Origin: the human T2T-CHM13v2.0 reference genome, Homo sapiens
DNA: 64,000 bases
NCBI RefSeq assembly: GCF_009914755.1
Contig: NC_060947.1
Strand: one strand, 5' to 3'
Made by a program: the position numbers and the translations under genes. Position 1 is the stretch's first letter. Each line of letters opens with the position of its first letter. Positions 1-20,619 of the stretch are shown one piece after another. The notes under the pieces were generated by a model. That model made no database searches. It saw only the letters and a program-made list of their open reading frames with translations, and was not told where the DNA came from.

Positions 1-15
1 AAATATACATTTCAG

Positions 16-121
16 AATTCTTGAATTACATCAAAAGTGTTTAATTGGATTGAAACAGATATAGAAGTAAACTATTTTTATGTAATCTTTTGGAGAGATT
101 GTTGATTTGTTACATGAGGAA
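16..121 (+). pseudogene. Decayed exon remnant of putative DH-PH (RhoGEF-like) pseudogene
   Basis: Acceptor catttcAG (14-15), donor GAA|GTATGT. Reads ILELHQKCLIGLKQI*K*TIFM*SFGEIVDLLHEE with 3 stops, resembling the DH pattern I.ELH..FL..L....IGDIF. Confidence 0.4.
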
Positions 122-630
122 GTATGTACTTTACAGATGCAGTACCCTTTTGTATGCTTATCACTTTGCTTCTTGACTCTCTCACCAGGTAACTCAAAAC
201 ACAGACAATTTTCTGGCCTATTGATTAGAGACTACACAATCCTCAATATAGTAGATCGTATATCTATCTGCCCTTTTGTAATTCTGCATACAATAAATGT
301 ATTCTGTCTAGGTAGCAAATTCCTGAAGGGTAAAAGTCAGGATTAGCTTAGCCTAATTTAATCCCTAGAATTACTCAGTACCTTTAAAAAGCAACAAATA
401 TCAGTTGATCACTTCCAGTGATGGAACTATCATTTACAAAGTGATTTTGAAGCCAAGTAAACAAAAGTTTACTTGTCAAGAACATTCTCACGGATTCATT
501 ATTATTACCAATCATTTAAAAATCTTGCACATAAGCTGATCTAGAAAGTAAAAAAAAGACAATAAAGAATTTAAAAGCTTATGCAGAAATATTACATATA
601 AATTTTTACTAATTTGCAAATTCATCAAAA

Positions 631-750
631 AGCAAGCACACTTATAATTACCAAACTCCGATATTTACTTGTAAAATGTCGCAGTACAACAGCGAGCATA
701 CTTATAATTACCAAACTCCAACATTTACTTATAAAATGTCACAGTACAAC
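631..750. repeat. 60-bp tandem duplication (2 copies)
   Basis: 631-690 vs 691-750 differ at 6 of 60 positions, all transitions. Confidence 0.95.
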
Positions 751-1174
751 TTTATTGCAGAGTTGGAGTATGTTACTGGGTATGAATAAATAAATTAATA
801 AACAAAATTACTTAAAAGGAGCTATTCCCGGTAGCTAATTATTTACTGAAATATTCCTTAAACACACAGAGGCATACACATATGCAATATGAAGAGTGGG
901 AAAGTGTAGTCTGTGAATACTACACTAGCCATTATTTCCTTAGTTGAGCTCAATTTCAATGATCTTAAAATTGGTAATTGATTAAATTTCTTTGACAGCA
1001 ATATCTATATATGTTTGTTTAGTGAAATCCTAGATGCAGCAGTAGCACTAGCCACATAACCAAAATTTCCAGACTAGTGGAAAATGTGGCTACTGTCATC
1101 ACTGTTATGTGTTAGAAGGGAAGAAAGGGCTAAAAAAGGTTTCCCTTGTTTCTCTCATTTTCCCTTTGTTGAAG

Positions 1175-1412
1175 CTTTGGAATACATTTCAGGCTATCAC
1201 GAAGTTTTCCAACCTACAAGTTAACCTTGGGTAGACTCTTCAAACATAGATCCCTATATTTTCTTACAGAATACAGATGTATAGATGCAATGATTTATGC
1301 AATGTCTTTTGACCCTGAAGAGACAGTTTCCTGCAATTTGGTGTAACAACTGCTATGAAATGACTATTATAAATACTGTCATAATTTCAACATTGGTCAG
1401 CAGCAGCCAAAT
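1175..1412 (+). pseudogene. Decayed exon remnant (putative DH core)
   Basis: Pyrimidine tract then gaAG (1173-74), donor AAT|GTATGA. One frame reads LEYISGYHEVFQ...FMQCLLTLKRQFP, with stops and a probable frameshift. Confidence 0.35.
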
Positions 1413-1516
1413 GTATGATACAAAACTCAAATTTTCCATTGTTTAAAAGTGTATTCATGTCACAATGCAGTTTCTGTATGAAAACTCTTAGTGTAAAATA
1501 TGGATACCATTTTCAG

Positions 1517-1619
1517 ATGACAGAATAGTAGAATCCATAAAGAAAAGCAACAGAAGGAGGAGGATAGTAATTTTCCTTCCTTTCCATTTGCTGCTCTGCT
1601 GAAGAAGTGATCAAGACTG
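1517..1619 (+). pseudogene. Decayed exon remnant (putative DH C-terminal helix)
   Basis: cattttcAG acceptor, TG|GTATGA donor. Reads DRIVESIKKSNRRRRIVIFLPFHLLLC*RSDQD. Its phase-2 end matches the start of the next exon. Confidence 0.45.
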
Positions 1620-1927
1620 GTATGACAGGTAGACATTTAACACATGCAGATTTTTCCTTCTTTGAACATTGACAGGGTGATATCAACATAAATTGGACTG
1701 AAAAAATGTAATTTCAAGAAATGAAATTATTATTTATATACTTTAATTTGTAAAATCATCTCAGGAACTTATTTACAGCTTCAGGGAGGTTTTTAAAGTT
1801 CCCTCTATATTTTTAAAGGGCATAAAATATAGATTTTTTAAAAAAGCTATAGTAAAATTCAAAACATCTGCTAAGTATTGCTAGCACTTAATCTTAAAGA
1901 CTACTGTTTTTAATATTTTTTCTCTAG

Positions 1928-2039
1928 TTTTTATTATATTAACCTTATATAACCAGAACCAAAGAAAGCATTACTAAAGCAACAGCATCGCATTGAAAAC
2001 TTCGGGCTAATATTTACCCATTACTTGCTGTTTTATCAA
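1928..2039 (+). pseudogene. Decayed exon remnant (putative PH start)
   Basis: Strong acceptor ttttttctctAG. Reads FYYINLI*PEPKKALLKQQHRIENFGLIFTHYLLFYQ with one stop. Weak donor CAA|GTGGAA gives phase 0, matching the 11695 exon. Confidence 0.45.
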
Positions 2040-2309
2040 GTGGAAGATGAGTTTAGATCCTCACAAAACCATCTTCCAACTTTTTTGTTAGACATTTTTA
2101 GGAGACAAAGTGTGCTATTCAGTAGTACCCTATTTTTATTTTTTTATTTTTGGAATGACAATGTGAGGAGGAGGTCCTTGTCTATTTGATTAGAATAGAC
2201 TTTGCCACAGAATGTTCCCATAAAATGTTCATAAGTGGTCTTATAAAAATTGCTATATTAAACTACATTTAAAAAAAGTAAGTTAAATACAATTTTTAAA
2301 GACTTATCA

Positions 2310-3190
2310 GGAATGTAAAATGGTACAACTGCTTTGGGAAATTGTCTGGCAATTCCTCAAATGGTTAATTATAGACTTACAATAGGACCCAGTAGTTCCA
2401 TTCTGAGGCACATACCCAAGAGAAATGTAAACATATATTCACATGAATCAACCTAAATACTCATCAACAGTAGACTGGATAAAGAAAATTTGGTACTTAT
2501 ACACCATGGAATACTACACAGCCATAAAAAATAACAAGGTCATGTGCTTTGCAGGAACATGGTTGGAGCTAAGGGACATTATCCTAAGCAAACTAAAACA
2601 AGAACAGGAAATCATATACCACATATTCTCACTTACACATGGGAGCTAAGCATTGGAAACACATGGACACAAGAAGGGCAACAAAAGACACTAGGACCTA
2701 CTTGAGGGTGGAGGATGGGAGGAGGGAGAGGATTAAAAAACTGCTATTGAGCACTATGCTTATTACCTGGGTAAGGAAATAATTTGTACACCTAACCCCT
2801 ATGACACACAGTTTACATAAAACAAACCTGCACATGTACCCTTGAACCTAAAATAAAAATTTTAAAAAAGAAAACATATGTCCATACAAAGACTTAGACA
2901 TGAATGTTCAGAGTGACACTATTGCTAAGAGCAAAAACGTGGAAACAACCTAAATGTCCTCAACCAATGAATAGATAAGCAAAATGTGACATACGCATAC
3001 ACTGGAATATTATTTGATCATAAGGAGGAATGAAGTAGCAATACAAGCTATAATATGGATGAATCTTTAAAACATTATGCCAAGTGAAAGAAACTAGGTA
3101 ATGTATTGTACAATTTTATTTACATGAAGTGTCCAGAACAGGCAAATCCATTGAGACAGAAATTAGATTAGTGTTTGCCAGATAAGCCAA
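2310..3190 (+). mobile_element. Old L1M 3' region interrupted by a 5'-truncated L1PA15-16/L1PB-type 3' end (about 2443-2870)
   Basis: L1 ORF2 C-terminal motif (NQPKYSSTVDWIKKIWYLYTMEYY) and L1 3'UTR. The old L1M 3' terminus appears to resume at about 10620-10750. Confidence 0.8.
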
Positions 3191-3444
3191 TTAATGACAG
3201 TTCTGTGGGAATGAGTCTTTGAAGGACCTCCAACCCTGTTCTGCCTCCTCTGATGTCTGTCAGGTCCCTGGTCATCCCGGTGATTGCAGGATGTTGGTTT
3301 TCAAGGCTACTGTGGAAGTTCATAGGGGGATAATGGAAATAGGGCATATTAAATTGCAACAAAGCTCACTGTTCTCTCCAATATTCAGTTGATTTTCTTG
3401 AATAAGTGGCCACAAATTGCAGCAAGCATGTGGTTAATTGCTAG

Positions 3445-3766
<322 letters not shown>

Positions 3767-3839
3767 TACAGTTTTTAAAATGGTTGATTCTGACACTTAC
3801 TGCTAGTTTTCTCGTTGCTTTTATGGAGGAAATAATTTT

Positions 3840-6800
3840 TTTTTCTTCATTTCTTCTAACAAACAAAAAACGGGATACATGTGCAAAACGTTCAGGTTTG
3901 TTACATAGGTATACGTGTGCAATGGTGGTTTGCTGCACCTGTTGACCCATCTGCTAATTTCCCTCCCCTCACCCCTACCCCTCAACAGGCCCTGGTGTGT
4001 GTTTTTCCCCTCTCTGTGTCCATGGGTTCTCATTGTTCAACTCCCACTTATGAGTGAGAACATGCAGTATTTCGTTTTCTGTTCCTGTGTTAGTTTGCTG
4101 AGGATGATGGCTTCCAGCTTCAACCATGTCCTTGCAAAGGACATGATCTCATTCCTTTTTATGGCTGCATGGTATTCCATGGTGTATATGTACCACTTTC
4201 TTTATCCACTATGTCATTGATGGGAATTTGGGTTGGTTCCATGTCTTTGCTATTGTAAATAGTGCTGCAATAAACATACATGTGCATGTGTCTTTATATT
4301 AGAATGATTTATATTCCTTTCGGTATATACCCAGTAATGGGGTTGCTGGGTCAAATGGTATTTCTGGTTCTATATCCTTGAGGAATCACCATACTGTCTT
4401 TCACAATGGTTGAACTAATTACATTCGCACCAACAGTGTGAAAGCATTCCTATTTCTCCACAGCCTTGCCAGCAACTATTGTAACCTGACTTTTTAATAA
4501 TCACCTTTCTGACTGGCATGAGATGGTATCTCATTGTGGTTTTGATTTGTGTTTCTCTGATGATCAGTGATGTTGAGCTTTTTTTCATATGTTTCTTGGC
4601 CACATAAATGTCTTCTTTTGAGAAGTGTCTGGTCATATCCTTTGCCCACTTTTAAATGGGGTTGTTTGTCTTTTTCTTGTAAATGTGTTTAAGTTCCTTG
4701 TAAATTCTGGATATTAGACGTTTGTCAGGTGGGTAGATTGCAAAAATTTTCTCCCATTCTGTAGGTTGCCTGTTCACTCTGATGATAGTTTTTTGTTTGT
4801 TTGTTTGTTTGTTTCTGTGCAGAAGCTCTTTAGTTTAATTTGGATCCCATTTGTCAATTTTGGTTTTTGTTGCAATTGCTTTTGGCATTTTCATCATGAA
4901 GTCTTTGCCATGCCTATATCCTGAATGGTATTGCCTAGGTTTTCTTCTAGGGTTTTTATGGTTTTGGTTTTACATTTAGGTCTTTAATCCATCTTGAGTT
5001 AATTTTTGTATAAGGTGTAAGGAAGGGGTCCAGTTTCAGTTGTCTGCAAATGGCTAGCCAGTTTTTCCAACACCATTTACTGAGTAGGAGATCCTTTCCC
5101 CATTCCTTGTTTTCGTTAGATTTGTCAAAGATCAGATGGTTGTAGATGTGTCATCCTATTTCTGAGGTCTCTGCTCTGCTCCATTGGTCTATATGTCTGT
5201 TTTAGTAGCAGCATCATGATGTTTTGGTTACTGTAGTCTTGTAGTATTTTTTGAAGTCAGGTAGCGTGATGCCTCCAGTTTTGTTGTTTTTGCTTAGGAT
5301 TATCTTGGCTATACGGGGTCTTCTTTGATTCCATATGAAATTTAAAATAGTTTTTTTCTATTTCTGTGAAGAATGTCAATGGTAGTTTGATGGGAATAGC
5401 ATTGAATCTATAAATTACTTTGGGCAGTATGGCCATTTTCACGATATTAATTCTTTCTATCCATGAGGATGGAATGTTTTTTCCATTTGTTTGTTTCCTC
5501 TCTGATTTCTTTGAGGAGTGGTTTGTAGTTCTCCTTGAAGAGGTCTCTCACATTCCTTGTTAGCTGTATTCCTAGGTATTTTATTCTCTTTGTAGCAGTT
5601 GTGAACGGGTGTTCCTTCATGATTTGACTCTTTGCTTGCCTATTGTTGCTGTAAAAAAATGCTTGTGATTTTTGCACATTGGTTTTGTATCCTGAGACTT
5701 TGCTGAAGTTGCTCATCAGTTCAAGGAGTTTTGGGACTGAGATGATGGGGTTTTCTAAATATAAGATCATGTCTCTGCAAACAGACAACTTAACTTCCTC
5801 TCTTCCTATTGGAATACCCTTTATTTCTTTCTCTTGCCTCATTGCCCTGGCCAGAACTTCCAATACTATGTTGAATAAGAGTGATGAGAGAGGGCATCCT
5901 TGTCTTGTACCAGTTTTCAAAGGGAATGCTTCCAGCTTTTGCCCATTCAGTATGATATTGGCTGTGGATTTGTCATAAATAGCTCTTACTATTTTGAGAT
6001 ACCTTCCATCAATACCTAGTTAATTGAGAGTTTTTAACATGAAGAGATGTTGAATTTTATTGAAGGCCTTTTCTGCATCTATTGAGGTAATCAGGTGGTT
6101 TTTTTCTTTGGTTCTGTTTATGTGATGGATTACGTTTATTGATTTGCATATGTTGAACCAGCCTTGCATCCCAGGGATGAAGCCCACTTGATCATGGTGG
6201 ATAAGCTTTTTGATGTGCTGCTGGATTCAGTTTGCCAGTATTTTATTGAGGATTTTTGCATCAATGTTCATCAGGGATATTGGCCTGAAGTTTTCTTTTT
6301 CTGTTGTATCTGTGCCAGGTTTTGGTGTCAGCATGACGCTAGCTTCATAAAATGAGTTAGGGAGGAGTCCCTCCTTTTCAATTATTTGGAATAGTTTCAG
6401 AGGAAATGGTACCAGCTTTTCTTTGTATTTCTAGTAGAATTCGACTGTGAATTTGTCTGTCCTGGGCTTTTTTGGTTGGTAGGCTATTAACTACTACCTC
6501 AATTTCAGAGCTTGTTATTGGTCTATTCAGGGATTCTTCTTCCTGGTGTACTCTTAGTAGGGTGTATGCATCCAGGAATTCATCCATGTCTTCTAGATTT
6601 TCTAGTTTGTTTGCATAGAGGTGTTTATAGTATTCTCTGATGGTAATTTGTATTTCTTCGGGGTCGGTGGTGATATCTCCTTTATCACTTTTTATTGCAT
6701 CTATTTTATTTTTCTCTCTCTTCTTCTTTATTAGTCTAGCTAGTGGTCTATCTATTTTGTTAAGTTTTTCCAAAAAAAACAGCTCTTGGATTTGTTGATT

Positions 6801-9800
6801 TTTTGGAGGGTTTTTCATGTCTCTATCTCCTTCAGTTCTTCTCTGATCTTAGTTATTTATTTTCTTCTGCTAGCTTTTGGATTAGTTTTCTCTCGCCCCA
6901 CTAGCTCTTTTAATTGTGATGTTAGGGTGTTAATTTGAGATCATTCTAGCTATCTGATGTGGACATTTAGTGCTATAAATTTCCCTCTTAACACTGCTTT
7001 AGCCATGTCCCAGAGATTCTGGTATGTTGTCTCTTTGTTCTCATTGTTTTCAAAGAACTTCTTTATTTCTGCCTTAATTTCCTTATTTACCCATGAGTCA
7101 TTAAGGAGCAGATTGTTCAACTTCATAAAATTGTGTGGTTTTAAGTTAGTTTCTTAATTCTGAGTTCTAATGTGATTGCACAGTGGTCTGAGAGACTGTT
7201 ATGATTCAGTTCTTTTGCATTTGCTGAAGAGTGTTTTACTTCCAATTATATGGTCTATTTTAGAATAAGTGCCATGTGGCACTGAGAAGAATGTATCTTC
7301 TGTTGATTTGAGATCGAGAGTTCCTTTTTTTTTTTTTTTTGAGATGGAGTCTCACTCTGTCGCCCAGGCTGGTGTTGATCTCGGCTCACTGCAACCTCTG
7401 CCTCCCAGGTTAGAGAAATTCTCCTGCCTCAGCCTCCATAGTAGCTGGGATTACAGGCATGCACCCACATGCCCAGCTACTTTTTGTATTTTTAGTAGAG
7501 ACAGGGTTTCACAATGTTGGTCAGACTGGTCTTGAACTCCTGACCTTGTGATCTGCCTGCCTCAGCCTCCCAAAGTGCTGGGATTACAGGCATGAGCCAC
7601 TGTGCCTCGCTGGTAGAGAGTTCTTTAGACATCTCCTAGGCCACTTGCTCCAGAGCTGAGTTCAAGTCCTGAATATCCTTGTTAATTTTCTGTTTGTTGA
7701 TCTGTCTAATACTGACAGTGGGGTGTTAAAGTCTCCCACTATTATTGTGTGGGAGTCTAAGTGTCTTTGTAAGTCTCTAAGAACTTGTTTTATGAATCTG
7801 GGTACTCCTAAATTGGGTTCATGTATATTCAAAGTAGTTAGCTCTTCTTGTTGAATTGTTTCTTTTATCATTATGTAATGCCCTTCTTTGTCTTTTGTTG
7901 GTTTAAACTCTGTTTTATCAGAGACTAGGATTGCAACCCCTGCTTTTTTTCACTTTCCATTTGCTTGGCACATTTTTCTCCATCCCTTTATTTTGAGTCT
8001 GTGTGTGTCTTTGCAGGTAAGATGGGTCTCCTGAATACAGCACACCAATGGTTCTTGACTCCTTATCCAATTTGCTAGTCTCTGTCTTTTAATTGGGGCA
8101 TTTAACCCATTTACATTTAATGTTAGTATTGTTATGTGTGAATTTGATCCTGTTATCATGACACTATTTGGTTATCTTGCACACTTGTTTATGCAGTTTC
8201 TTTGTAGTGTCATTGGTCTTTATATTTTGGTGTGTTTTTGCAGCAGCTGGTACTAGTTTTTCCTTTCTATACTTAGTGCTTCTTTCAGGAGCCCTTGCAG
8301 GGCAGGCCTGCTGGTAAGTGAAATCCCTTAGCATTTGCTTGTCTGGAAAGGATTTTATTTCTCCTTCACTTATGAAGCTTAGTTTGGCTGGATATGAAAT
8401 TCTGGATTGAAAATTCTTTTCTTTAAGAATGTTGAGTATTTGCCCCCAGTCTCTTCTGGCTTGTAGAGTTTCTGCTGAGAGGTCTGCTGTCAGTGTGATA
8501 TGCTTCCCTTTGTAGTTTACCTGGCCTTTCTCTCTGGCTGCCCTTAACAGTTTTTCCTTCATTGCAACCTTGGAGAATCTGAGGATTATGTGTCTTGAGG
8601 TTGATCTTCTCGTGGAGTATCTTAATGGTGTTCTCTGCATTTCCTGAATTTGCATGTTGCCCTGTCTTGCTAGGTTGGGGAAGTTCTCCTGGATAATATC
8701 CTGAATTGTGTTTTCCAGCTTGTTTCCATTCTCCTCATCTCTTTCTGGTACTTCAATCAATCATAGGTTCTGTCTTTTTATGAAGTCCCATATTTCTAGG
8801 AGGCTTTGTTCATTCCTTTTTATTCTTTTTTCTCTATTCTTGTCTGCATGTCTTATTTCAGTAAGGTGGTCTTCAAACTCTGATATCCTTTCTTCTGCTT
8901 TGTCAATTCAGCTGTTGAACTTCATGAAGTTCTTGTTCTGTGCTTTTCAGCTCCATCAGGTTGTTTATGTTCCTCTCTAAACTGGATATTCTAGTTAGCA
9001 ATTCCTCTAACATTTCTTCAAGGTTCTTAGCTTCTTTGCATTGGGTTAGAAAATGCTCCTTTAGCTCACTGTAGTTTTTTATTACCCATCTTCTGAAGCC
9101 TACTTCTGTCAATTCATCCATCTGATCCTCTGTCCAGTTCTGCGCCCTTGATGGAGAGATGTTGTGATCATTTGGAGGACAAGAGGCACTCTGGCCTTTT
9201 GGGTTTTCATCATTTTTTCATTGATTCTTTCTCATCTTCGTGAGTTTGTTTAGTTTCGGTCTTTGAGTATGATGACCCTTGGATGGGGTTTTTGTGGGGG
9301 CTTTTTCATTGTTGTTGTTGTTTGTGCTGTTGTTGCTTTCCTCTTGATTTTCTTTCAATAATTTGGTCCCTCTTCTGTAGGGCTGCTGCAGTTTGCTGGG
9401 GGTTCACTTCAGGCCCTATTCATCTGATTCGCTCCTGTGCCTGGAGATGTTATTCAAGGAGGCTGGAGAGCAGCAAAGCTGGGCGCCTGCTCCTTTTTCT
9501 GGGACCCCTGACCTCAAGGGGCACCAACCCGTTGCCAGCAGGATTGTTTCTTTATACGGTGTCTGACAACCCCTGTCAGAGGGTCTCACCCAGTTGGGTG
9601 GCATGGGGAGCAAGACCCGTTTAATGAAGCACTTTGTCCCTTGGTAGAGAGGGTGTGTTTCACTGGGCGTGGGGGGGAACCCACTGGTCTAGGCTGCCTG
9701 GATTCCTCAGAACTACCAGGAGGAGAGGCTAAGTCTGCTGGTCTGCAGAGACTATGGCCACCCTTCCCCATAGGGGCTCAGACCCAGGGAGATCTGAATT

Positions 9801-10567
9801 CTCTCCCTGAGCCTCTGGCTAGAGTTATTGGAGATCCTGCAGGGAAGCCCTGCCCACTGAGGAAGGATGGGTTGGGGTTAAGCCTGAAGAGGCACTCTGG
9901 CTGCAGACTGCCACAGCTGGTGTGTTGGGCTGTGTGGACAAGTCTTGGGACCAAGCCGTCCAGCCTCCCTGGCTCCAGCAGGGAAAAAGCATGGCTTGGA
10001 GCTATAGAAATTGGTGCCACCCTTCCCCTGCCCAGGGAGCTTAGCATGTTAGGTAATTGAGAGTCCCAATGCTGGCTGTTGACCCTCCCCCAAGGAGCTC
10101 AAGTGGCTTAGACAGCAGGCTGCTTCAGCAGGTGCTGGTCACCCCTCCTGCCAGGAGTTTGGTAGGCTTAGGCAGATTCCTGCTGGGAGGCTGTAAGCAT
10201 CTGTGTGTTCTGGGGTTGGGATGCTAGGCCCTGGTGATGTGGGTTCATGAGTGGGATCTTCCGATCCATGGGTTGCACAGTTCTGTGGAAAAAGCACAGT
10301 TTCCTTGGCTGGGTAGTGCACTCACTCACCACCTCCCTTGGCTGGGAAGTAGGGGTTCCCCTTCCCCATGTGGCTCTCAGTTGGGCCCCACACCACACTG
10401 CTCTTCCTTCTCCCCGTGGGTCATACCAGCCTTGTAGTCAATTTTGATGAGAGAACCTGGATACCTTGGTTGCCCATGAAGGATTCACACGCTTATTATG
10501 GGTTTTTTTTTGGTGGGAGCCTCCAAACGCAGCTGCTTCTAGTTGGCCACCTTGGCCCCCTTCCATC
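3840..10567 (-). mobile_element. Full-length decayed LINE-1 (L1PA8A-like)
   Basis: 5'UTR start GGGGGCCAAGGTGGCCAACTAGAAGCAGC on -. ORF1 fragments (8164-8760, 8903-9121), ORF2 EN (MITGSNSHITILTLNVNGLN) and RT fragments. 13-bp TSD aggaaataatttt at 3827-3839 and 10568-10580. Confidence 0.95.
7325..7612 (-). mobile_element. AluS nested in L1 ORF2
   Basis: Poly-T plus Alu body, TSD about gagagttc. Confidence 0.95.
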
Positions 10568-10791
10568 AGGAAATAATTTTCATGGATCCTTACTGTGCTA
10601 TTTTTGCTGGTGTCCTTGGACTTCTTTTTGGGGTGATGAAAATCTTCTGGAGTTAGATAGTAGTGATGGTTGTCAAACTCTGTAAATATGCTTAAAAATA
10701 CTGAAGTACACATTTTAAAAGGATGACTATGGTATGTGAATGTTTTAATAAGTTTTATTATTTGTATTTGCTATTTATATATTATTATATA

Positions 10792-11240
10792 TGTTAAGGC
10801 TAACAGACCAGGAGATGACTGCTATTGAGAAAAGTTTGTTGTTCACAGATCCAAATAGGAATGGGCATGCCATGTTACTGGAGGATAGAGTGTGGTACAT
10901 GGAAAGCACCAAGGTCTTCGGATCTTCGTATGAGGCAGGGCAAACAAGTTTTGGATTGGTTAGTCAGAATAATTTCAATGGGCTCTAGGGTTTAGGGGCT
11001 GTACCTAGTTGTCTGGTACCTGGTCCTATGGTGATTATGGCAGGCAGACAGTGGTCTGAAGTGTCAGAGCCCAATAAAGGAAGTGGTTCGGATATTGGCT
11101 GTCGATTGGTTGATTTGCATTTGGAAGGTGCACTCACAGGCAAATTGTTTGCTATCTCTAGGAATTGTCTAACCCTAGGAGGGGTAGTGCCTCGAAGATT
11201 AGCAAGGTCCGAGATGTCAAAATATTAGAATACAGAAAAT
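10792..11240. mobile_element. ERVL-type LTR (MER76-like)
   Basis: Starts tgttaaggctaacagaccaggagatgactgctattga, similar to the recalled MER76 consensus. Subfamily and end uncertain. Confidence 0.55.
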
Positions 11241-11694
11241 AAAAGACATGGTTAATATAGTTAATTGTATAGTTAATAATAGCTAATAATATAGTTAATT
11301 ATATAGCAATAAATAAGACTTCTCAGAGCCTTTAATAGTATCCTATACTATGAAGCTCTAAGTAATAATTATATGTTATTTTCTCAATTATTGGCCATGG
11401 AATCATGTGTGTGAGGAGCGGGTGGAGCCTTTCATGAGACTAAGATCCTAGGAAATACACTTTGAGAAACACTAGACTAGAATATTCTGTCCCTTGAAGA
11501 AAGAAAGTAATTCTTTTGGGGATTCTTTACATTTATCAATGATTTGGAGGAATCTGAATATGTCTATAGTGTCTATTATAGTGCTATCCTAGACCTACAG
11601 ATCTAAGATAGAATGTGTCAAACAGAAGGCAAGGGAATTAAGTGTGTTGATGTAATGTGATGAACAGTATCTCTGAACTTAAATTTTCTTTCAG

Positions 11695-12981
<1,287 letters not shown>

Positions 12982-13180
12982 GTAAGATTTTCAAACTCGC
13001 TTCAACTACTTTTGTAAATTATGTATAATTTTCCAGACAAGCAGATTTTCATCAGTGAATTCATTTTCAAACTTACCACCTGGAAATCTGTTTCTTTATA
13101 TCCCATAAGGTATCAGCTTTTTCTAAGAGAATTGGGGAGTTCCCTACAATTGTAAGCCTAATATTTGGTGATTACAGTAT

Positions 13181-14509
13181 TGAGAGGTGACAATGTGCTA
13201 GCAGCCCTTGCTCACTCTCAGTGCCTCCTTGGCCTCGGCGTCCACTCTGGCCATGCTTCAAGAGCACTTCAGCCCGTGGCTGCACTGTGGGAGCCCCTCT
13301 CTGGGCTGGCCGAGGCCAGAGCCAGCTCCCTCTGCTTGCCGGGAGGTGTGGAGGGAGAGGCGAGGCGGGAACCGGGGCTGCACGTGGTGCTTGCGGGCCA
13401 GGGCAAGTTCCAGGTGGGCGTGGGCTCGGCAGGCCCTGCACTCTTGGAGTGGCCCTGGGCTGTGAGGGGCTTAGCACCTGGGCCAGCAGCTGCAGAGCGT
13501 GCATCAGGTCCCCCAGCACTGCCGGCCCGCCTGCACCTTGCTTGAATTCTCGCCGGGCCTCAGCCGCCTCCCCACGGGGCAGGGATCAAGACCTGTAGCC
13601 TGCCATGCCCAAGCCCCCCCCCCCCACCACCGTGGCCTCCCACTTGGCCCGAGCCTCCCTGATAGGTGCCACCCCCTGCTCCGCTAAAGAGTGCAGGCCC
13701 GTGGAGTGGGACTGGCGGGCAGCTCCACCTGTGGCCTCAGCGAGGGATCCATAAGGCAAAGCCAGCTGGGCTCCTGAGTAGGGTGGGGTCTTGGAGAATT
13801 TTTATGTCTGGCTGGAGGATTGTAAATGCACCAATCAGCACTCTGTGTCTAGCTCAGGTTTTGTGGATGCACCAATCAGCACTCTGTATCTAGCTAGTCT
13901 GGTGGGGACTTGGAGAACTTTTATGTCTAGCTAGAGGATTGTAACTGCACCAATCAGCACTTTGTGTCTAGCTCAAGGTTTGTAAAGGTACCAGTCAAAA
14001 TGGACCAATCAGCTCTCTGTAAAATGGACCAATCAGCAGGATGTGGGTGGGGTCAGATAAGGGAATAAAAGCAGGCTGCCTGAGCCAGCAGCTGCAACCC
14101 CCTTGGGTCCTTTTCCACGCTGTGGAAGCTTTGTTCTTTCACTCTTCGTAATATATCTTGCTGCTGCTCACTCTGGGTCTGCGAAGTCTTTAAGAGCTGT
14201 AACACTCACCCTGAAGGTCTGCAGCTTCACTCCTGAAGCCAGCGAGACCATGAACCCACCGGTAGGTACGAACAACTCCAGATGTGCTGCCTTTATGAGC
14301 TGTAACACTCACCATGAAGGTCTGTGGCTTCACTCCTGAAGCCAGCGAGACCACGAACCCACCAGAAGGAAGAAACTCCAGACACGTCTGAACATCAGAA
14401 GGAACAAACTCCGGACACACCATCTTTAAGAACTGTAACACTCACCATGAGGGTCCACAGCTTCATTCTTGAAGTCAGTGAGACCAAGAACCCACCAATT
14501 CTGGACACA
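13181..14509 (+). mobile_element. Solo LTR12 (ERV9/HERV9 LTR, LTR12C/D-like)
   Basis: TGAGAGGTGAC...GGACACA termini, 4-bp TSD gtat, GC-rich U3, repeated gcaccaatcagcac units, U5 repeats ctgtaacactcacc. Confidence 0.95.
13825..14075 (+). promoter_or_regulatory. LTR12 enhancer/promoter: CCAAT array, GATA site and AATAAAA TATA-like box
   Basis: Five CCAATCAG motifs at about 13831, 13872, 13950, 14005 and 14029, then gataagggaataaaagc at about 14057-14073. Confidence 0.7.
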
Positions 14510-15785
14510 GTATGACTTTAAGTTGGATACTTTCAATGAGACCCCAGTTAATAATTATGAGAAAATAAACTCTTAAAATATACAAACTAGTTATGACTTT
14601 GGAAATTTGGAATAAATTTTCTCTTTTAAAAATAACTTTCAGTTAAGTGGGTAATCTTGAGAAAATGACTAGTCCTCATTCTATCACAGATTTTAACTGA
14701 CAGAATGGCAACATTTACCCTCTAACACACCCATCCACCCAGTAACAACCCTGTTGGTTAAAACAGAAACACTCCACTCCATTTCCTCCTGCATGTGAGC
14801 ACCATAGTGGCTAAAAAGTATTAATTGACAAATAAATGATTAATATTATAGCCTATACCTGAAGTAATATTAACAGAACTACTTATGATGTATTTATAAT
14901 GTACATTAAAATCCTAGGCTGAAATCTGCACTTAACTGTAAGGTAACATTTTTGTTTTTATCATTAGAGCTATTTAAACATATATGAAAATAATACTATG
15001 AATACCAAATAGTACTAGGAATTTTTAATTCTAACTCATGTTAGAAACCGACCCCCATAACTTCATGAAAATGGTGTCATCAACTAGAAATCTTTCTTAG
15101 AAATAGCCCCACCAAACTACAGAAGGTAGTTCCAGAGAAGAATCTGGAATCTAACACAAACTTTGTATGCAAATCATAATTTGGTCATTCTGTAATTTGT
15201 TTCTTTTTCTACACACATTCAAGACTGATAAATTATTTATCAGGCACTAAAATTTAAGTATTCAAAATCAGCTTAGATCACTTTATCATTTGAAATGTTT
15301 ATAAAATTGGCTCAACCCCAAAATCACATCCAACACCCTCCTCAAAATTCCTGCAAATTCCTAGAGGCTTCCGTTTTCATGGTTACCCCTCTCTCTGATT
15401 TCATAGTTCCACTGAACTCTTCATCTCATCCTTCATTTATCACCCCTCTGCAGCTCCTCTCTCATCACAATATTGTTCTTCCTCTCTCGGTTGTTCCTCC
15501 ATTTTTCTACTTTCCACTGTCCACAAATTCCTGGTCATTGTGTGAAACCATTAACCACAACTTTGGATTTTTTTCTGTTCACCTTTTATACCCAAAACAG
15601 ATATTAAGATATTTTGCTAAACAGAAGGTTACATACCGTGATGATAGTGCCATGTGATTTGGAACTGTTAGATGATTGGATTGGTATCAAATTTGGATAT
15701 ACTTATCTGTCATTCTTACAGTTTCTTCTCAAAACAGTAGTCAATCTTCCATCTTTTAAAAACAACTTCTGATTATGTGTTTTAG

Positions 15786-16288
15786 AAAATGCAAATGAAA
15801 GAGACAGCATTAAAGAAGCTTGGCAAAAGGCCATTTTGTCAGGTTCTGCAGACTATTTTCCTATCAATTCAAGCTTTTAGAATTCTTCTGAAATTTGGGG
15901 TAAAATTAGAATTCCTGAAGATAGTACTGGACTTCCCAGGAACAATGTTAGAATTCCCAGAAATAATGTCAGTATTCCTATGGTTAATGTTGGAATTCCC
16001 ATGGATAATCCTGAAGTTCATGGAGGCAATGCTGAAGTTCCTCATAAGTTTAATATTGAGGTTCCTACAAATAATGCTGGGGTTCCCAGAGGCAATGCTG
16101 GAGCATTGCTGGAACTTCAATGTAATCTTGAAGTTCCTAGAGGCAATGGTAGTGTTCCCAAGGGCAGTGGTGTTGGGGTTCCCATGGGTAATGTTGAAAC
16201 TCTCAGGCGCAATGTTGGAACTTCCAGCAGACATACTGTATCCTCTCCACCTCTTGAGCTCTCAGAGATAGGTGATCTCCAATTATAA
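15786..16288 (+). pseudogene. Terminal exon remnant with premature TAG and heptad-repeat tail
   Basis: Acceptor tgtttttAG. Reads NANERDSIKEAWQKAILSGSADYFPINSSF* (TAG 15878-80), then the same frame stays open to TAA 16286-88. AATAAA at 16323 and 16413. Confidence 0.65.
15900..16230 (+). repeat. Degenerate 21-nt tandem repeat encoding xNxx(V/I)P heptads
   Basis: NNVRIPR NNVSIPM VNVGIPM DNPEVHG GNAEVPH ... NNAGVPR ... CNLEVPR GNGSVPK. Confidence 0.85.
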
Positions 16289-16896
16289 AAGCTGACATCT
16301 TACAAAGTAGTCCTAATAGTTAAATAAACACATCACAACACTTAACATCTAAACAGCTACGTACCAAGTCTTACAACTCAAAATAGTAAATGTAATATTT
16401 AAATTCAAAATGAATAAATAAATATATAAATACACTGATGATTGTCTTTTTTGGCATTGGATTGGGTTTATTTGCTAGTTTATTCTGAATGGGAACCATC
16501 AATTATCTATGAGATAATTTGGTTAGGGGTTGAGTTGTGAAGGAGTAAGATGCTTAATTCCTTAAGCCTAGATTTCTACTTGCTAAAGAGATACAGTGTC
16601 TATATCACTAAACAAAATAGCAACTAACCTTCAAATAATATTGTGTATCTCATATTCCCAACAATGGCAGGTCTTCTTGGATATTTTGATGGGCAAATGA
16701 AAGCAATCTCATAGTTATTAACAGTTATCTATATGAGTCTAGCTTAATATCCAAGAAATTTATTGACTGAAAGCTAAGGAAACAGGAAATTTGGCAAAAG
16801 ATTATTGAATACAGTGCTTCTCTGAAATGTCCAGATAGAACCTCTGCAGAAAGCTCATTAACAAGAGTACTTAAATATGTGTATTTATTTTTGTGA

Positions 16897-17240
<344 letters not shown>

Positions 17241-17610
17241 ATTTACTGGAATTCTTAAAAATATTAGAAGAAAAACAACTGTAGAACTGTAAATATTATA
17301 TGTAGTGTTAATGTAAATAATATAAATAAGACAACACTAACAACACTACAGGATGCCTAAAATATTGCATGTTAATACTTTTGTTTTGAAAATTAATTTA
17401 GTTTATTCCTCTCAACTACCAAATTAGTTTGGCATAAAAAGACACAGGGCATAAGGGGGAAATTATTGAAATATTTTACCAAATCACTGAGTAGAATGCC
17501 CTTCTCAGAGAGAAGAGGACCACTTTTTAATGGCCAGATGATCATCATGGTATTCAAATTACACAATCATAGTTACCTGTAAAATTTGGTTTTAAAAAAC
17601 ATTTATTTCA

Positions 17611-18002
<392 letters not shown>

Positions 18003-20619
18003 TCATAAACTACAGGGGGGAAATAATCTCATTATATTCAAACATAATATATTTTTTTCCAAAGTTTCGGGGTGTATGGGCCATTATTCAATTTGTACAT
18101 TTAAATTTTCAACTATGCTGAATAATGGTAGCTGTTGTTTTTACAAAACCAAGGGTAATTTAAATTTTAGGTTACCACCTAACCCCTAATTGTGTGTCTT
18201 ACCACATAATGCAAGTGGTGGTAATCTGTAGTCTAATGGCAAACTCCTGCCCACTCACAGGATCCATTTGGTCTTTGAGGAAGAAGGTAAAGAGGATAGC
18301 CCTCTCTTCACTACCCCCTGGTTCAGTGTGTGCTTACTGAACCATGGCTTTGGCATCAGAAGAAAAGGACAAGTAGTGAGATTTCTTTCCCCTATTTCTT
18401 ACCAGCCCAGAAGATAGCATACCATTTCAGACTTGAGTAACCTGAATTTCGTATAGGGTAGCAAGACCACAGAAGTAATGGAAGGATACAGGATGCCATA
18501 CTTCAGTGACTGTCAATGCCTGACTCAGAAAAAAACAAACTGACAATTCACCTTGTTTAACAGAGAGTCTATATATACACGATGTTGTCACACTGACTTT
18601 GTGAAATAGAACTATTACATTTCTGATCTTCAAAGGGAACCACCTTATGGGTGCAAAAACAGTAAAATAAGATGGAAACTGAGAAATGGCTCACTAAGAA
18701 CTAACATTTACTACAAAGCAAGTGAAAAAAAAGACAAACAAAATTGTGCTCAACCATATATAATACTGACATATAATTGAAAATGGTCACTAAAACACTA
18801 CCACCATCAACAACAGCAGCAAAACCCTGCTATATCAGTGTTATTTCTCATCCTTTATGATTAATATATTTTTGGGGTACTGTATTTAGTGACTTTAAAC
18901 ATAAAAAATTATATGTGAAGTGGCCAGGTGCTTCTTTGCAAAATTTTAAGAAACTGAATGAAACTAAGGTAAAGAATCAAATGTGAAGATGGTCTAAGAA
19001 GATAATTCTGAATCTCGTAAAGAAAATTACTTCCAAATATTGTTAGTTCAGAACTGAGCAATGCAAAAGTTTCAATGACACATCACTATTTATCTTCCAA
19101 GATTGTCCCATGTCTTCTTAGGGCTCTCTACGTCAAGTAAATTATCTAAAGTCATTCAATAATCATCATAATTCTAGAGGAAAGAGAGAGTAAAGAACAT
19201 GGAATATACGGAATAAGAAATTTTCCTCACAAATTTCACATAAATTGAACCTGAGGCCTTCATGGAAAAAAAAAATGTTAAAATTGAAAATCTAAAGGCA
19301 TAGGATTGAAGAAGGAAAATGATGAGCCATTTCTAATTCTCTTACTTTTTCCAAATAAATGACAGATTAAAATTACCTACATGTAATATTTCTATATTTT
19401 AATATGCTCCTATAAAATAAGAAGAAAATTACTTGCTAAAATTGATGATAGCGTAGGATGGGAGAAAGAACTCTGAAAGTGTCCTGCATATTTTACTATG
19501 CAAGAAAGAACAGTTAATCAGAAAACAACAATAAATAGTTATTGGTTAACCACCATAATTAGCCATATTGTTTCCTTCTAAGGCTCTAGAAAAATGTAAA
19601 GTGTGCACTGCTCAGTGTGAGTAACAGATGAATTCTTCTAATTTTACAGATGTTTTACATACATTCCCCTAATTATACTAAAATAATTTTAATTTGTAAA
19701 TTAAATTGTACAATGTGCATTCAGATAAGTTGAAATAATTTTTAATTCACAAGTTACTTAGCAGAAGAATGAAAGAGTTTTCTTTACTAAATAATATTTC
19801 TTTTATGTCTGTTTAAGTCTTCAAAAATTAAGCAAATGAAAAAATATTTTCCTCAAAGGTTAATATGATGGAACTAAGGAGAAAAATATTTGACACAAAA
19901 ACACTTATCTAAGAACCAACAAAATGTAGTATTCAAATATCATAACTGCTACTTTCATTTCAATAAACACAGCGTTAGAAAAATATTTCTCAAACCATTT
20001 AATTCAATTCAAAATATTTTTGAAGCATTCTGAATAGGGAAATCATTCATACATAACCATGACCTGTACATTAGAACAAAGGGACTTCAACAGTTTGTAA
20101 CATTAAAAAATATATATTTCAGATGGTCTGTTTGTCTATAATTAGAAGGTAAAATGAAGAATTGAGGCTTTACACATGTAGTGAAGCCTTAATTTATTTC
20201 AGAAAACCACAATATCAAGAATCATTATAAAATTACAACACACAACTATGAAGAAAATTTATCCAAAAAATCAAGCAAGGGCATTAATTTTGAACATTAA
20301 ACTCATGGTAACTGAATGCACAACAGTATTTCTTTTTAAGAATGAGACAGTATAGACGGTGTGTATAATTTATATTAAAATCCATTAACTAGCAAGAAAG
20401 CTTCATTTATTGCATGTGGCGTTTCCATCTAATGATTAAGTATGTTTTAGAAGTGAAAACTCAAAATATTGCAAATTGCTTTTAGTAGATCATAGGGTAT
20501 AAAGTGCATATGACTGTTCAATAAATCTTTTAAGAGCAAAGAGCCTCATTGATGTGTGATAATCTTGTAGAAAGTGGGGGGATAAAAGAAGAGCAAAACA
20601 GAAATTAGAATAAAACTGT

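What the first reader, a model, noticed from the sequence alone, without database searches (positions are those of the whole stretch)
16..16288. Dead DH-PH (Dbl-family RhoGEF-like) gene upstream of APOOL
Seen: six AG/GT-bounded + strand segments in non-repeat sequence (16-121, 1175-1412, 1517-1619, 1928-2039, 11695-12981, 15786-16288). Phases match at 1619/1928 and 2039/11695; other joins need a frameshift. Inferred: the repaired peptides fall in the order of Dbl-family motifs. These are ILELHQKCL..SFGEIV (DH I.ELH..FL..IGDIF), EYISGY (Y..Y..NY), CLLTLKRQFP..QLL (LL.PVQR.P.Y.LLL.ELL), RIVESIKK (end helix), INLI*PE..LLKQ and FGLIFTHYLLF (PH beta1-3), PNFQYKH (beta4), HPEEKCFFFS and IKEAWQKAI (beta7 and PH helix). 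Each match is weak alone; the collinearity is the evidence. From recall, mouse has Tex16 and 4933403O08Rik upstream of Apool, so this could be the unitary pseudogene of one of them. I cannot tell which, or whether the DH-PH nature is already annotated.
Basis: partly seen in the sequence, partly recalled or inferred. Interest (0 to 1): 0.8.

Follow-up and report, generated by a model that had tools for sequence, protein, structure and literature searches.

The report
Dead TEX16 tail exons, not RhoGEF
The stretch upstream of APOOL does hold the decayed last exons of a lost gene, but that gene is the testis gene TEX16, a relative of the scaffold protein CNKSR2, and not a DH-PH Rho exchange factor.

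Summary
There is a dead gene here, but it is not a DH-PH gene. They align to intact mammalian proteins at tblastn E down to 1e-52. They carry 5 in-frame stops, 5 frameshifts and a 306-nt Alu-type insertion.

The intact relatives are named 'CNKSR2-like' or 'Testis expressed gene 16'. They carry SAM, CRIC and PH domains and no RhoGEF domain.

The segments that carried most of the 'DH' and 'PH beta1-3' motifs are 16-121, 1175-1268, 1517-1619 and 2039-bounded 1928-2039. None matches any of 34 orthologues, and none matches Pfam.

The real PH exon relics lie outside the window, 61 kb, 56 kb and 0.2 kb upstream.

The known human TEX16P exon lies 199 kb upstream of the window. The window therefore holds the 3' end of that unitary pseudogene. 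The RefSeq table supplied with the finding does not list it. Interest is low to moderate.

The parts
1270..1377 (+). Exon relic (108 nt) encoding the linker just after the PH domain (EYRCIDAMIYA / CLLTLKRQFPAIWCNNCYEMT). A 2-nt deletion at about 1302 shifts the frame.
   Evidence: tblastn to 14 of 34 orthologues, best E 6e-8. Frameshift-aware alignment gives 25/36 identity to Microcebus P0001. AG at 1268-1269 and GT at 1378-1379. The 3' border is the less certain one: the human sequence has three extra codons compared with the orthologues.
11695..12981 (+). Large exon relic (1287 nt including the insertion). In-frame stops at 11833 (TGA), 11860 (TAG), 12191 (TAG) and 12887 (TGA). Frameshifts near 11956, 12075, 12817 and 12926. 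It holds the motif [20 protein letters not shown], which is shared with CNKSR2.
   Evidence: tblastn to 33 of 34 orthologues, best E 1.2e-52. Aligned together with the last exon, identity is 305/477 to the camel long isoform P0003. AG before and GT after. The motif matches fish CNKSR2 at 13/24 identity, E 7e-5.
12290..12595 (-). Interspersed ~300-nt repeat inserted into the large exon (Alu by recall). The poly-T is at its left end. The 17-bp target-site duplication GAAGCATGTATTCTCTT lies at 12273-12289 and 12596-12612. Insertion plus one duplicate copy is 323 nt, which is not a multiple of 3.
   Evidence: 26-T run. Target-site duplication and length. Eleven other copies in the window at 67-85% identity. 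The orthologue alignment resumes exactly after the duplication.
15786..16288 (+). Terminal coding exon relic. It joins 12981 in phase. One in-frame stop (TAG 15878). It holds imperfect 8-residue repeats of the form N-x-G-V-P-x-G-N. The terminal TAA at 16286-16288 is at the same position as the orthologues' stop.
   Evidence: the search for homologous proteins E 5.4e-42. tblastn E 1.2e-49, 57% identity to Microcebus P0001. Alignment. One stop in 167 codons in the coding frame, against about 1 in 14-20 in the introns.
16323..16328 (+). AATAAA hexamer 35 nt after the terminal stop. Probable former polyadenylation signal.
   Evidence: Pattern located. Its function is inferred only.

Best explanation
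Window 1270-16288 holds the last three coding exons of a unitary, unprocessed pseudogene. The parent is an X-linked paralogue of CNKSR2 that other mammals keep intact and that databases call 'CNKSR2-like' or Tex16.

The ancestral protein was a CNK-type scaffold: an N-terminal SAM and CRIC region, a PH domain, and a long tail that is probably disordered and ends in 8-residue repeats. In mouse it is reported as a testis gene.

In the human lineage the reading frame is destroyed. In the window there are 5 stops, 5 frameshifts and one repeat insertion. One PH exon could not be found upstream. The locus therefore encodes nothing now.

The window part is most likely the 3' end of the same ancestral gene as the known TEX16P exon 199 kb upstream (my odds about 0.65). 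That gives a relic locus of about 261 kb (T2T chrX 83,145,096-83,406,288) with UBE2DNL lying inside one of its introns.

Shown here: orthology, domain content of the intact relatives, the lesions, the exon borders and phases. Inferred: a single transcription unit with TEX16P, the scaffold function, and the timing of the loss.
For: (1) The last exon, read with X at its stop, retrieves 11 mammalian proteins at E 5e-42 to 8e-13. P0005 has SAM and PH domains. P0010 and P0011 have SAM, CRIC and PH domains.

(2) tblastn and a frameshift-aware alignment map orthologue residues collinearly onto -227..-163, 1270-1377, 11695-12981 and 15786-16288. Splice sites are kept and phases match. Identity to P0003 is 305/477. 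The terminal stop is conserved.

(3) A whole-genome search with P0005 puts its best human matches at this locus. These include PH exon relics at C23:83328786-83328914 (65% identity) and, in the P0010 search, 83334217-83334309. The next best matches are the CNKSR2 locus at 34-48% identity and two other loci. Fish CNKSR2 identifies C23:21.01-21.24 Mb as human CNKSR2.

(4) The N-terminus of P0010 is 100% identical to Peromyscus LOC102912650 isoform X1 (P0012). It is similar to proteins named 'Testis-expressed gene 16' in Apodemus and Cricetulus. Tail proteins of rat, Jaculus, Nannospalax and Mus spicilegus are named Tex16.

(5) The Microcebus long Tex16-type protein P0022 maps to C23:83145096-83147153 and 83187974-83190943. 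A 2026 paper places T2T chrX 83,190,233 inside TEX16P (passage read). Zhang 2010 lists a 2.9-kb TEX16 unitary pseudogene on chrX+ (passages, supplement row).
Against: No genomic context of the orthologues was available, so synteny next to APOOL in other species was not shown directly. The only hints are equal 'longest contig' lengths for the tail and Tex16-type proteins in Cricetulus, Neotoma and Peromyscus.

Many NCBI models annotate the tail as a separate gene. Examples are Microcebus LOC105885271 against LOC105885282, and Cricetulus LOC100760636 against LOC100760342. One gene or two is therefore open.

The human SAM and CRIC exons were not found. Only CNKSR2 and a chromosome 6 locus matched.

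The 25-residue third PH exon was not found above the reverse-strand control.

The human PH exon relics taken alone are too short to hit Pfam PH.

The orthologues lack the PDZ and CNK2_3 domains of CNKSR2, so 'CNK family' holds for only part of the architecture.
Confidence: 0.9

Rival explanations
1. One reading: a dead Dbl-family DH-PH RhoGEF gene whose DH motifs lie at 16-1619 and whose PH motifs lie at 1928-16288.
For: The strings exist, and by eye some resemble DH and PH consensus patterns (ILELHQKCL, SFGEIV, W-x-x-A-I). Three of the segments are real exon relics.
Against: PF00621 and PH profiles give no hit at E<=10 on the nine whole-frame read-throughs or on the short segments alone.

PF00621 gives 147 matches genome-wide and none in the window, with 150 of 159 candidates scored.

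Intact orthologues have no RhoGEF domain (precomputed Pfam columns).

Four motif-bearing stretches match 0 of 34 orthologues.

The true counterpart of the orthologues' SFGD motif lies at -227..-163, not at 86-121.
Confidence: 0.02
2. The relic is a separate gene from TEX16P. In this reading it was a stand-alone 'PH-tail' or 'tail-only' transcription unit, perhaps the counterpart of mouse 4933403O08Rik. It would have arisen when the ancestral CNKSR2 paralogue split into two units, and it would have died independently.
For: Separate LOC models exist for the tail and for Tex16-type proteins in Microcebus and Cricetulus. Many tail proteins start at a methionine inside or just after the PH helix (MLQLAYG, MNYWVGQ). 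By recall, mouse has 4933403O08Rik between Tex16 and Apool.
Against: Peromyscus isoforms X1, X2 and X3 of one gene share the SAM-CRIC exons and diverge into either the long Tex16 exon or the PH and tail exons. Urocitellus P0005 joins SAM, PH and tail. Rat 'Tex16' P0067 has PH plus tail. All of these are predicted models, not verified transcripts.
Confidence: 0.3
3. The relic exons have a present function unrelated to coding, for example as part of a non-coding transcript or as a regulatory element of APOOL.
For: Splice dinucleotides and an AATAAA are retained, which would also be expected by chance over this time span.
Against: The supplied RefSeq table lists no functional element and no transcript here. 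Stops, frameshifts and a repeat insertion have accumulated as expected for neutral decay. No expression data were available to test this.
Confidence: 0.05

Closest known systems
TEX16P (human unitary pseudogene of mouse Tex16; Zhang et al. 2010, PMC2864566)
   Same: Same chromosome band and strand. The intact relatives of the window exons carry the name Tex16 in several rodents. In Peromyscus they share their 5' exons with the long Tex16-type isoform. Both parts are riddled with stops.
   Different: The published and annotated TEX16P is a single exon of about 2.9 kb, at T2T chrX 83,187,974-83,190,943. That is 199 kb upstream of the window. The PH and tail exons described here are not in the RefSeq table supplied with the finding. 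GENCODE could not be consulted.
CNKSR2 (connector enhancer of kinase suppressor of Ras 2, Xp22)
   Same: The closest human paralogue. The orthologue P0005 matches fish CNKSR2 in the PH domain (48% identity, E 3e-36), the SAM domain (34%) and the tail motif W-x-[DE]-L-[IL]-E-x-P-L-x-x-x-G-L-H-x-L-Q-T. It also matches the human CNKSR2 PH and tail exons. P0010 has a CRIC domain.
   Different: No PDZ domain and no CNK2_3 domain (PF06663) in the orthologues. The middle region is different and rich in Arg/Ser/Pro repeats. The 8-residue repeat tail is not seen in CNKSR2. CNKSR2 is intact in human and this locus is dead.
Dbl-family RhoGEFs (DH-PH, PF00621 + PF00169)
   Same: Only that the ancestral gene had a PH domain.
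   Different: No DH domain in any orthologue or in the window. The PH domain follows SAM-CRIC and a repeat region, not a DH domain.

Membership tests
Dbl-family RhoGEF (DH-PH) | A DH domain detectable with PF00621 | tested here: not met
   No hit at E<=10 in three frames of 1-2200, 11500-13100 and 15700-16400, nor on the short segments. None of 147 genome-wide PF00621 matches falls in the window. Orthologues P0005, P0010, P0011, P0012, P0022 and P0067 have no RhoGEF hit.
Dbl-family RhoGEF (DH-PH) | A PH domain directly C-terminal to the DH domain | tested here: not met
   In the orthologues the PH domain (P0005 556-648; P0010 484-573) follows SAM, CRIC and a repeat region.
CNK / CNKSR scaffold family | N-terminal SAM domain | tested here: inconclusive
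   Met in orthologues P0005, P0010 and P0012. The human SAM exon relic was not found: only CNKSR2 and a chromosome 6 locus matched.
CNK / CNKSR scaffold family | CRIC domain (PF10534) | tested here: inconclusive
   Met in P0010, P0011, P0012 and P0022. Not detected in P0005. The human relic was not located.
CNK / CNKSR scaffold family | PDZ domain | tested here: not met
   No PDZ hit in P0005, P0010 or P0011 at E<=0.01, whereas fish CNKSR2 P0033 has one.
CNK / CNKSR scaffold family | PH domain homologous to that of CNKSR2 | tested here: met
   P0005 against fish CNKSR2 gives 48% identity over 108 residues, E 3e-36. Human exon relics lie at window -61208..-61086 (68% identity), -55756..-55697 (80%) and -227..-163 (76%). 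One 25-residue exon was not found.
Unitary (unprocessed) pseudogene | Disabling lesions in exons that are coding in other species | tested here: met
   5 in-frame stops, 5 frameshifts (four in the large exon, one in exon 1270-1377) and a 323-nt insertion.
Unitary (unprocessed) pseudogene | Introns retained, and no intact copy elsewhere in the genome | tested here: met
   The exons are separated by 1.4, 10.3 and 2.8 kb with AG/GT kept. The best human matches of P0005 and P0010 are this locus, and the others are CNKSR paralogues at 34-48% identity or low-complexity hits. Those searches used a strict first look, so weak copies could have been missed.
Unitary (unprocessed) pseudogene | Conserved synteny with the intact orthologue | not testable with these tools
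   No mammalian genome other than the window's own is held. There are only indirect hints from equal contig lengths and adjacent locus tags.

The most novel reading that the evidence does not exclude
Eutherian mammals had a fourth CNK-family scaffold gene: a testis-expressed X-linked CNKSR2 paralogue of more than 250 kb. TEX16 and the 'CNKSR2-like' PH-tail models are two halves of it. Humans, and possibly all anthropoids, lost the whole gene, since Microcebus was the only primate among the protein hits. If so, TEX16P is much larger than annotated and reaches to within 26 kb of APOOL with UBE2DNL nested inside it.
Probability: 0.55. Interest if true: 0.35.

Novelty: new member of a known kind. 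Interest (0 to 1): 0.25.

Why it matters
It corrects an attractive but wrong call: no unknown human RhoGEF relic lies here.

It extends a known unitary pseudogene, TEX16P, by at least six exon relics over about 215 kb of DNA that the supplied RefSeq table leaves unannotated.

It ties the little-studied testis gene Tex16 to the CNK scaffold family. My two searches of the held paper library (Tex16 with CNKSR2, and Tex16 with 'connector enhancer') found no paper that makes that link.

For annotation it marks 1270-16288 as pseudogene exons, not candidate novel coding sequence.

For evolution it offers one more datable loss of a testis gene in the primate lineage.

Tried and rejected
- Pfam on whole-frame read-throughs and on single segments gave nothing for RhoGEF or PH. 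A Seipin hit (E 0.044, 14 bits against a cut-off of 25) and a PHYHIP_C hit (E 0.066, 13 bits against 27) are below cut-off and taken as chance.
- A PDB sequence search with a badly chosen 3.4-kb read-through gave only chance hits at E>=0.14 and was not pursued.
- A scan for the missing 25-residue PH exon in the 56 kb upstream gave a best plus-strand score of 24. The best score on the reverse-strand control was 36, so the exon was not found.
- The human PH exon relics alone do not reach Pfam PH. They are 41, 20 and 21 residues long.
- The N-terminal 249 residues of P0010 found no SAM or CRIC relic at the TEX16P locus.
- The structure prediction of the Microcebus tail protein with 26 aligned sequences gave mean pLDDT 36.2 and pTM 0.16, with no residue at 70 or above. 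No fold search was made on it. A model this weak shows neither a fold nor its absence.
- The supplement of Zhang 2010 gave only the coordinate row for Tex16 and no date of loss.
- The name 4933403O08Rik occurs in 1 paper of the library (listing only), which I did not read, and in none of the protein hits. Its identity with the tail unit stays a recalled lead.
Full report
**1. The observation**

The six segments have the stated borders: an AG before each, a GT after the first five, and TAA at 16286-16288 ending the sixth (read directly; for three of them). The quoted peptides are in the translations. So the strings are real. The question is whether they mean anything.

**2. Direct test of the DH-PH reading**

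- Pfam hmmscan on X-at-stop read-throughs of all three plus frames of 1-2200, 11500-13100 and 15700-16400 gave no RhoGEF or PH match at E<=10. There were nine queries and one sub-threshold Seipin hit.
Of eight queries, one gave a sub-threshold PHYHIP_C hit.
- PF00621 run over the whole assembly that holds the window gave 147 matches, none in C23:83,390,001-83,454,000. Of 159 candidates, 150 were scored.

**3. What the segments really match**

The last segment, read through its single stop, retrieved 11 mammalian proteins (E 5.4e-42 to 7.8e-13) named 'connector enhancer of kinase suppressor of ras 2-like' or 'uncharacterized'.

Pfam on these 11 proteins gave the following:
- P0005 (Urocitellus, 1043 aa): SAM and PH.
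- P0010 and P0011 (Peromyscus, 953 aa): SAM, CRIC and PH.
- The eight shorter tail-only proteins: no domain.
- None has a RhoGEF domain.

tblastn of 34 tail-containing orthologues against 70 kb upstream plus window 1-20000 gave HSPs as follows:

| Region | Orthologues with an HSP | Best E |
|---|---|---|
| 11695-12981 | 33 of 34 | 1.2e-52 |
| 15786-16288 | 28 of 34 | 1.2e-49 |
| 1269-1412 | 14 of 34 | 6e-8 |
| 16-121, 1175-1268, 1517-1619, 1928-2039 | 0 of 34 (E<=10) | none |

So ILELHQKCL..SFGEIV, EYISGY, RIVESIKK, INLI*PE..LLKQ and FGLIFTHYLLF are intronic chance strings.

The orthologues' '...WIGQMLQLAYGSSFGDAAANA' is encoded 0.2 kb before the window, in a 65-nt exon at window -227..-163 (L009 9773-9837). 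That exon is AG/GT bounded and 76% identical.

CLLTLKRQFP, PNFQYKH, HPEEKCFFFS and IKEAWQKAI are real coding relics. They correspond to P0005 residues at about 676-690, 703-710, 890-900 and 915-925. All lie after the Pfam PH domain (556-648). They are not DH CR3 or PH strands.

**4. Anatomy in the window**

Exon chain:
- Exon 1270-1377: AG/GT bounded. It joins -163 in phase (G + AA = Glu).
- Exon 11695-12981: joins in phase 0.
- Exon 15786-16288: joins 12981 in phase.

The terminal TAA is aligned with the orthologues' stop, and an AATAAA lies at 16323.

Lesions compared with the camel long isoform P0003 and Microcebus P0001:
- A 2-nt deletion at about 1302.
- Stops at 11833 (TGA), 11860 (TAG), 12191 (TAG), 12887 (TGA) and 15878 (TAG).
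- Frameshifts near 11956, 12075, 12817 and 12926.
- A 306-nt interspersed repeat at 12290-12595 with a 17-bp target-site duplication. Together they add 323 nt.

Identity to P0003 is 305/477 residues. In the coding frame the last exon has 1 stop in 167 codons. Flanking introns have about 1 in 14-20.

Some orthologues (P0001, P0005) skip the middle of the large exon. For that isoform the stops at 11860 and 12191 and the shifts at 11956 and 12075 would be intronic. The gene is still broken by the remaining lesions.

**5. The rest of the gene**

P0005 and P0010 searched against the whole assembly place further relics on the same strand of the same chromosome:
- A repeat-rich middle exon at 83,230,818-83,231,530.
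- PH exon A at 83,328,786-83,328,914 (window -61208..-61086). It is open and 68% identical.
- PH exon B at about 83,334,217-83,334,309 (window -55756..-55697 for the best part), 80% identical.

The 25-residue third PH exon was not found.

The next-best human matches are C23:21.17-21.19 Mb and loci on chromosomes 6 and 1, at 34-48% identity. Fish CNKSR2 identifies C23:21.01-21.24 Mb as human CNKSR2. By recall, the chromosome 6 and chromosome 1 loci are CNKSR3/IPCEF1 and CNKSR1.

P0005 against fish CNKSR2 gives PH 48% identity (E 3e-36), SAM 34%, and a tail motif at 13/24 identity (E 7e-5).

**6. Link to TEX16**

- The first quarter of P0010 is 100% identical to Peromyscus LOC102912650 isoform X1 (P0012, 1632 aa). 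It is similar to 'Testis-expressed gene 16' of Apodemus (P0019) and Cricetulus (P0053) (55 hits, most of the rest fish CNKSR2).
- Tail proteins of rat (P0067, which has a PH domain), Jaculus, Nannospalax and Mus spicilegus are named 'Testis expressed gene 16' (31 hits).
- The Microcebus long protein P0022 maps to human C23:83,145,096-83,147,153 and 83,187,974-83,190,943 with many stops.
- A 2026 paper places T2T chrX 83,190,233 in 'TEX16P (pseudogene)' (passage).
- Zhang et al. 2010 list a 2.9-kb TEX16 unitary pseudogene on chrX+ and count TEX16 among testis genes lost in human (passages, supplement row). My conversion of their hg18 coordinates to T2T rests on recalled offsets. It lands within about 50 bp of the match.
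- UBE2DNL (window -27381..-26642, from the supplied table) then lies in an intron of the relic. One Neotoma model (P0062) fuses a SAM domain with a UQ_con domain, which fits that nesting.
- Margolin et al. 2014 remark on a possible unannotated Tex16 start about 200 kb upstream in mouse (passage). That fits a very large locus.

**7. Mechanism**

Shown: the window exons are non-functional relics.

Inferred: the ancestral product was a CNK-type scaffold lacking the PDZ and CNK2_3 domains.

The tail has no Pfam family, and AlphaFold2 on a 26-sequence alignment gave mean pLDDT 36.2. This neither shows nor excludes a fold, but it gives no support to a PH fold in the tail.

Among primates only Microcebus appeared in the protein hits. 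This suggests loss after the strepsirrhine split. It is weak evidence, because absence from a protein database is not absence of a gene.

**8. Novelty**

TEX16P is known. The PH and tail exon relics are not in the RefSeq table supplied with the finding.

No paper in the held library combines Tex16 with CNKSR2 or with 'connector enhancer'. TEX16P occurs in 2 papers, of which I read one passage.

The finding is an extension and re-identification of a known pseudogene, of modest interest.

Noticed in passing
outside the window: window -27381..-26642 (UBE2DNL, from the supplied table); protein P0062: UBE2DNL sits inside an intron of the TEX16-type relic, between the PH exon at -55.7 kb and the exon at -0.2 kb. 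A Neotoma gene model (P0062) carries SAM plus a ubiquitin-conjugating (PF00179) domain. This suggests the same nesting, or a model fusion, in a rodent.
   Followed up: no
window 15786-16288: The terminal exon holds imperfect 24-nt (8-residue) repeats. TRF reports a 21-nt period at 15933-16009. Because of the repeats a second frame is also open for 161 codons (15786-16271) beside the true frame. The number of repeat units differs between species (gaps).
   Followed up: partly
window 13160-14600 (last intron of the relic): A G+C-rich stretch with long open frames on both strands and a 41-nt tandem repeat (13801-13997, 4.9 copies). It looks like an inserted retroelement LTR. It was not classified.
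   Followed up: no
window 631-750: A 60-nt tandem duplication (2.0 copies, 90% match) in the intron between the exon at -163 and the exon at 1270.
   Followed up: no
upstream of the window, -55697..-227: The 25-residue PH exon that orthologues encode between 'CRRN' and 'WIGQ' could not be found in human. The best plus-strand score was 24 and the best reverse-strand control was 36. It may be deleted or decayed beyond recognition.
   Followed up: partly
proteins P0081-P0085: Five unnamed proteins of 256-329 aa from metagenome-type sources are 63-68% identical to part of the Microcebus tail protein. They are presumably mammalian DNA within such data sets. Their origin was not traced.
   Followed up: no
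G000:C23:83230818-83231530: The middle exon relic of the gene is rich in Arg/Ser/Pro repeats. Through those repeats the orthologue query also hits unrelated low-complexity loci on chromosomes 2, 8, 9, 11, 13 and 15. Those hits are not paralogues.
   Followed up: no
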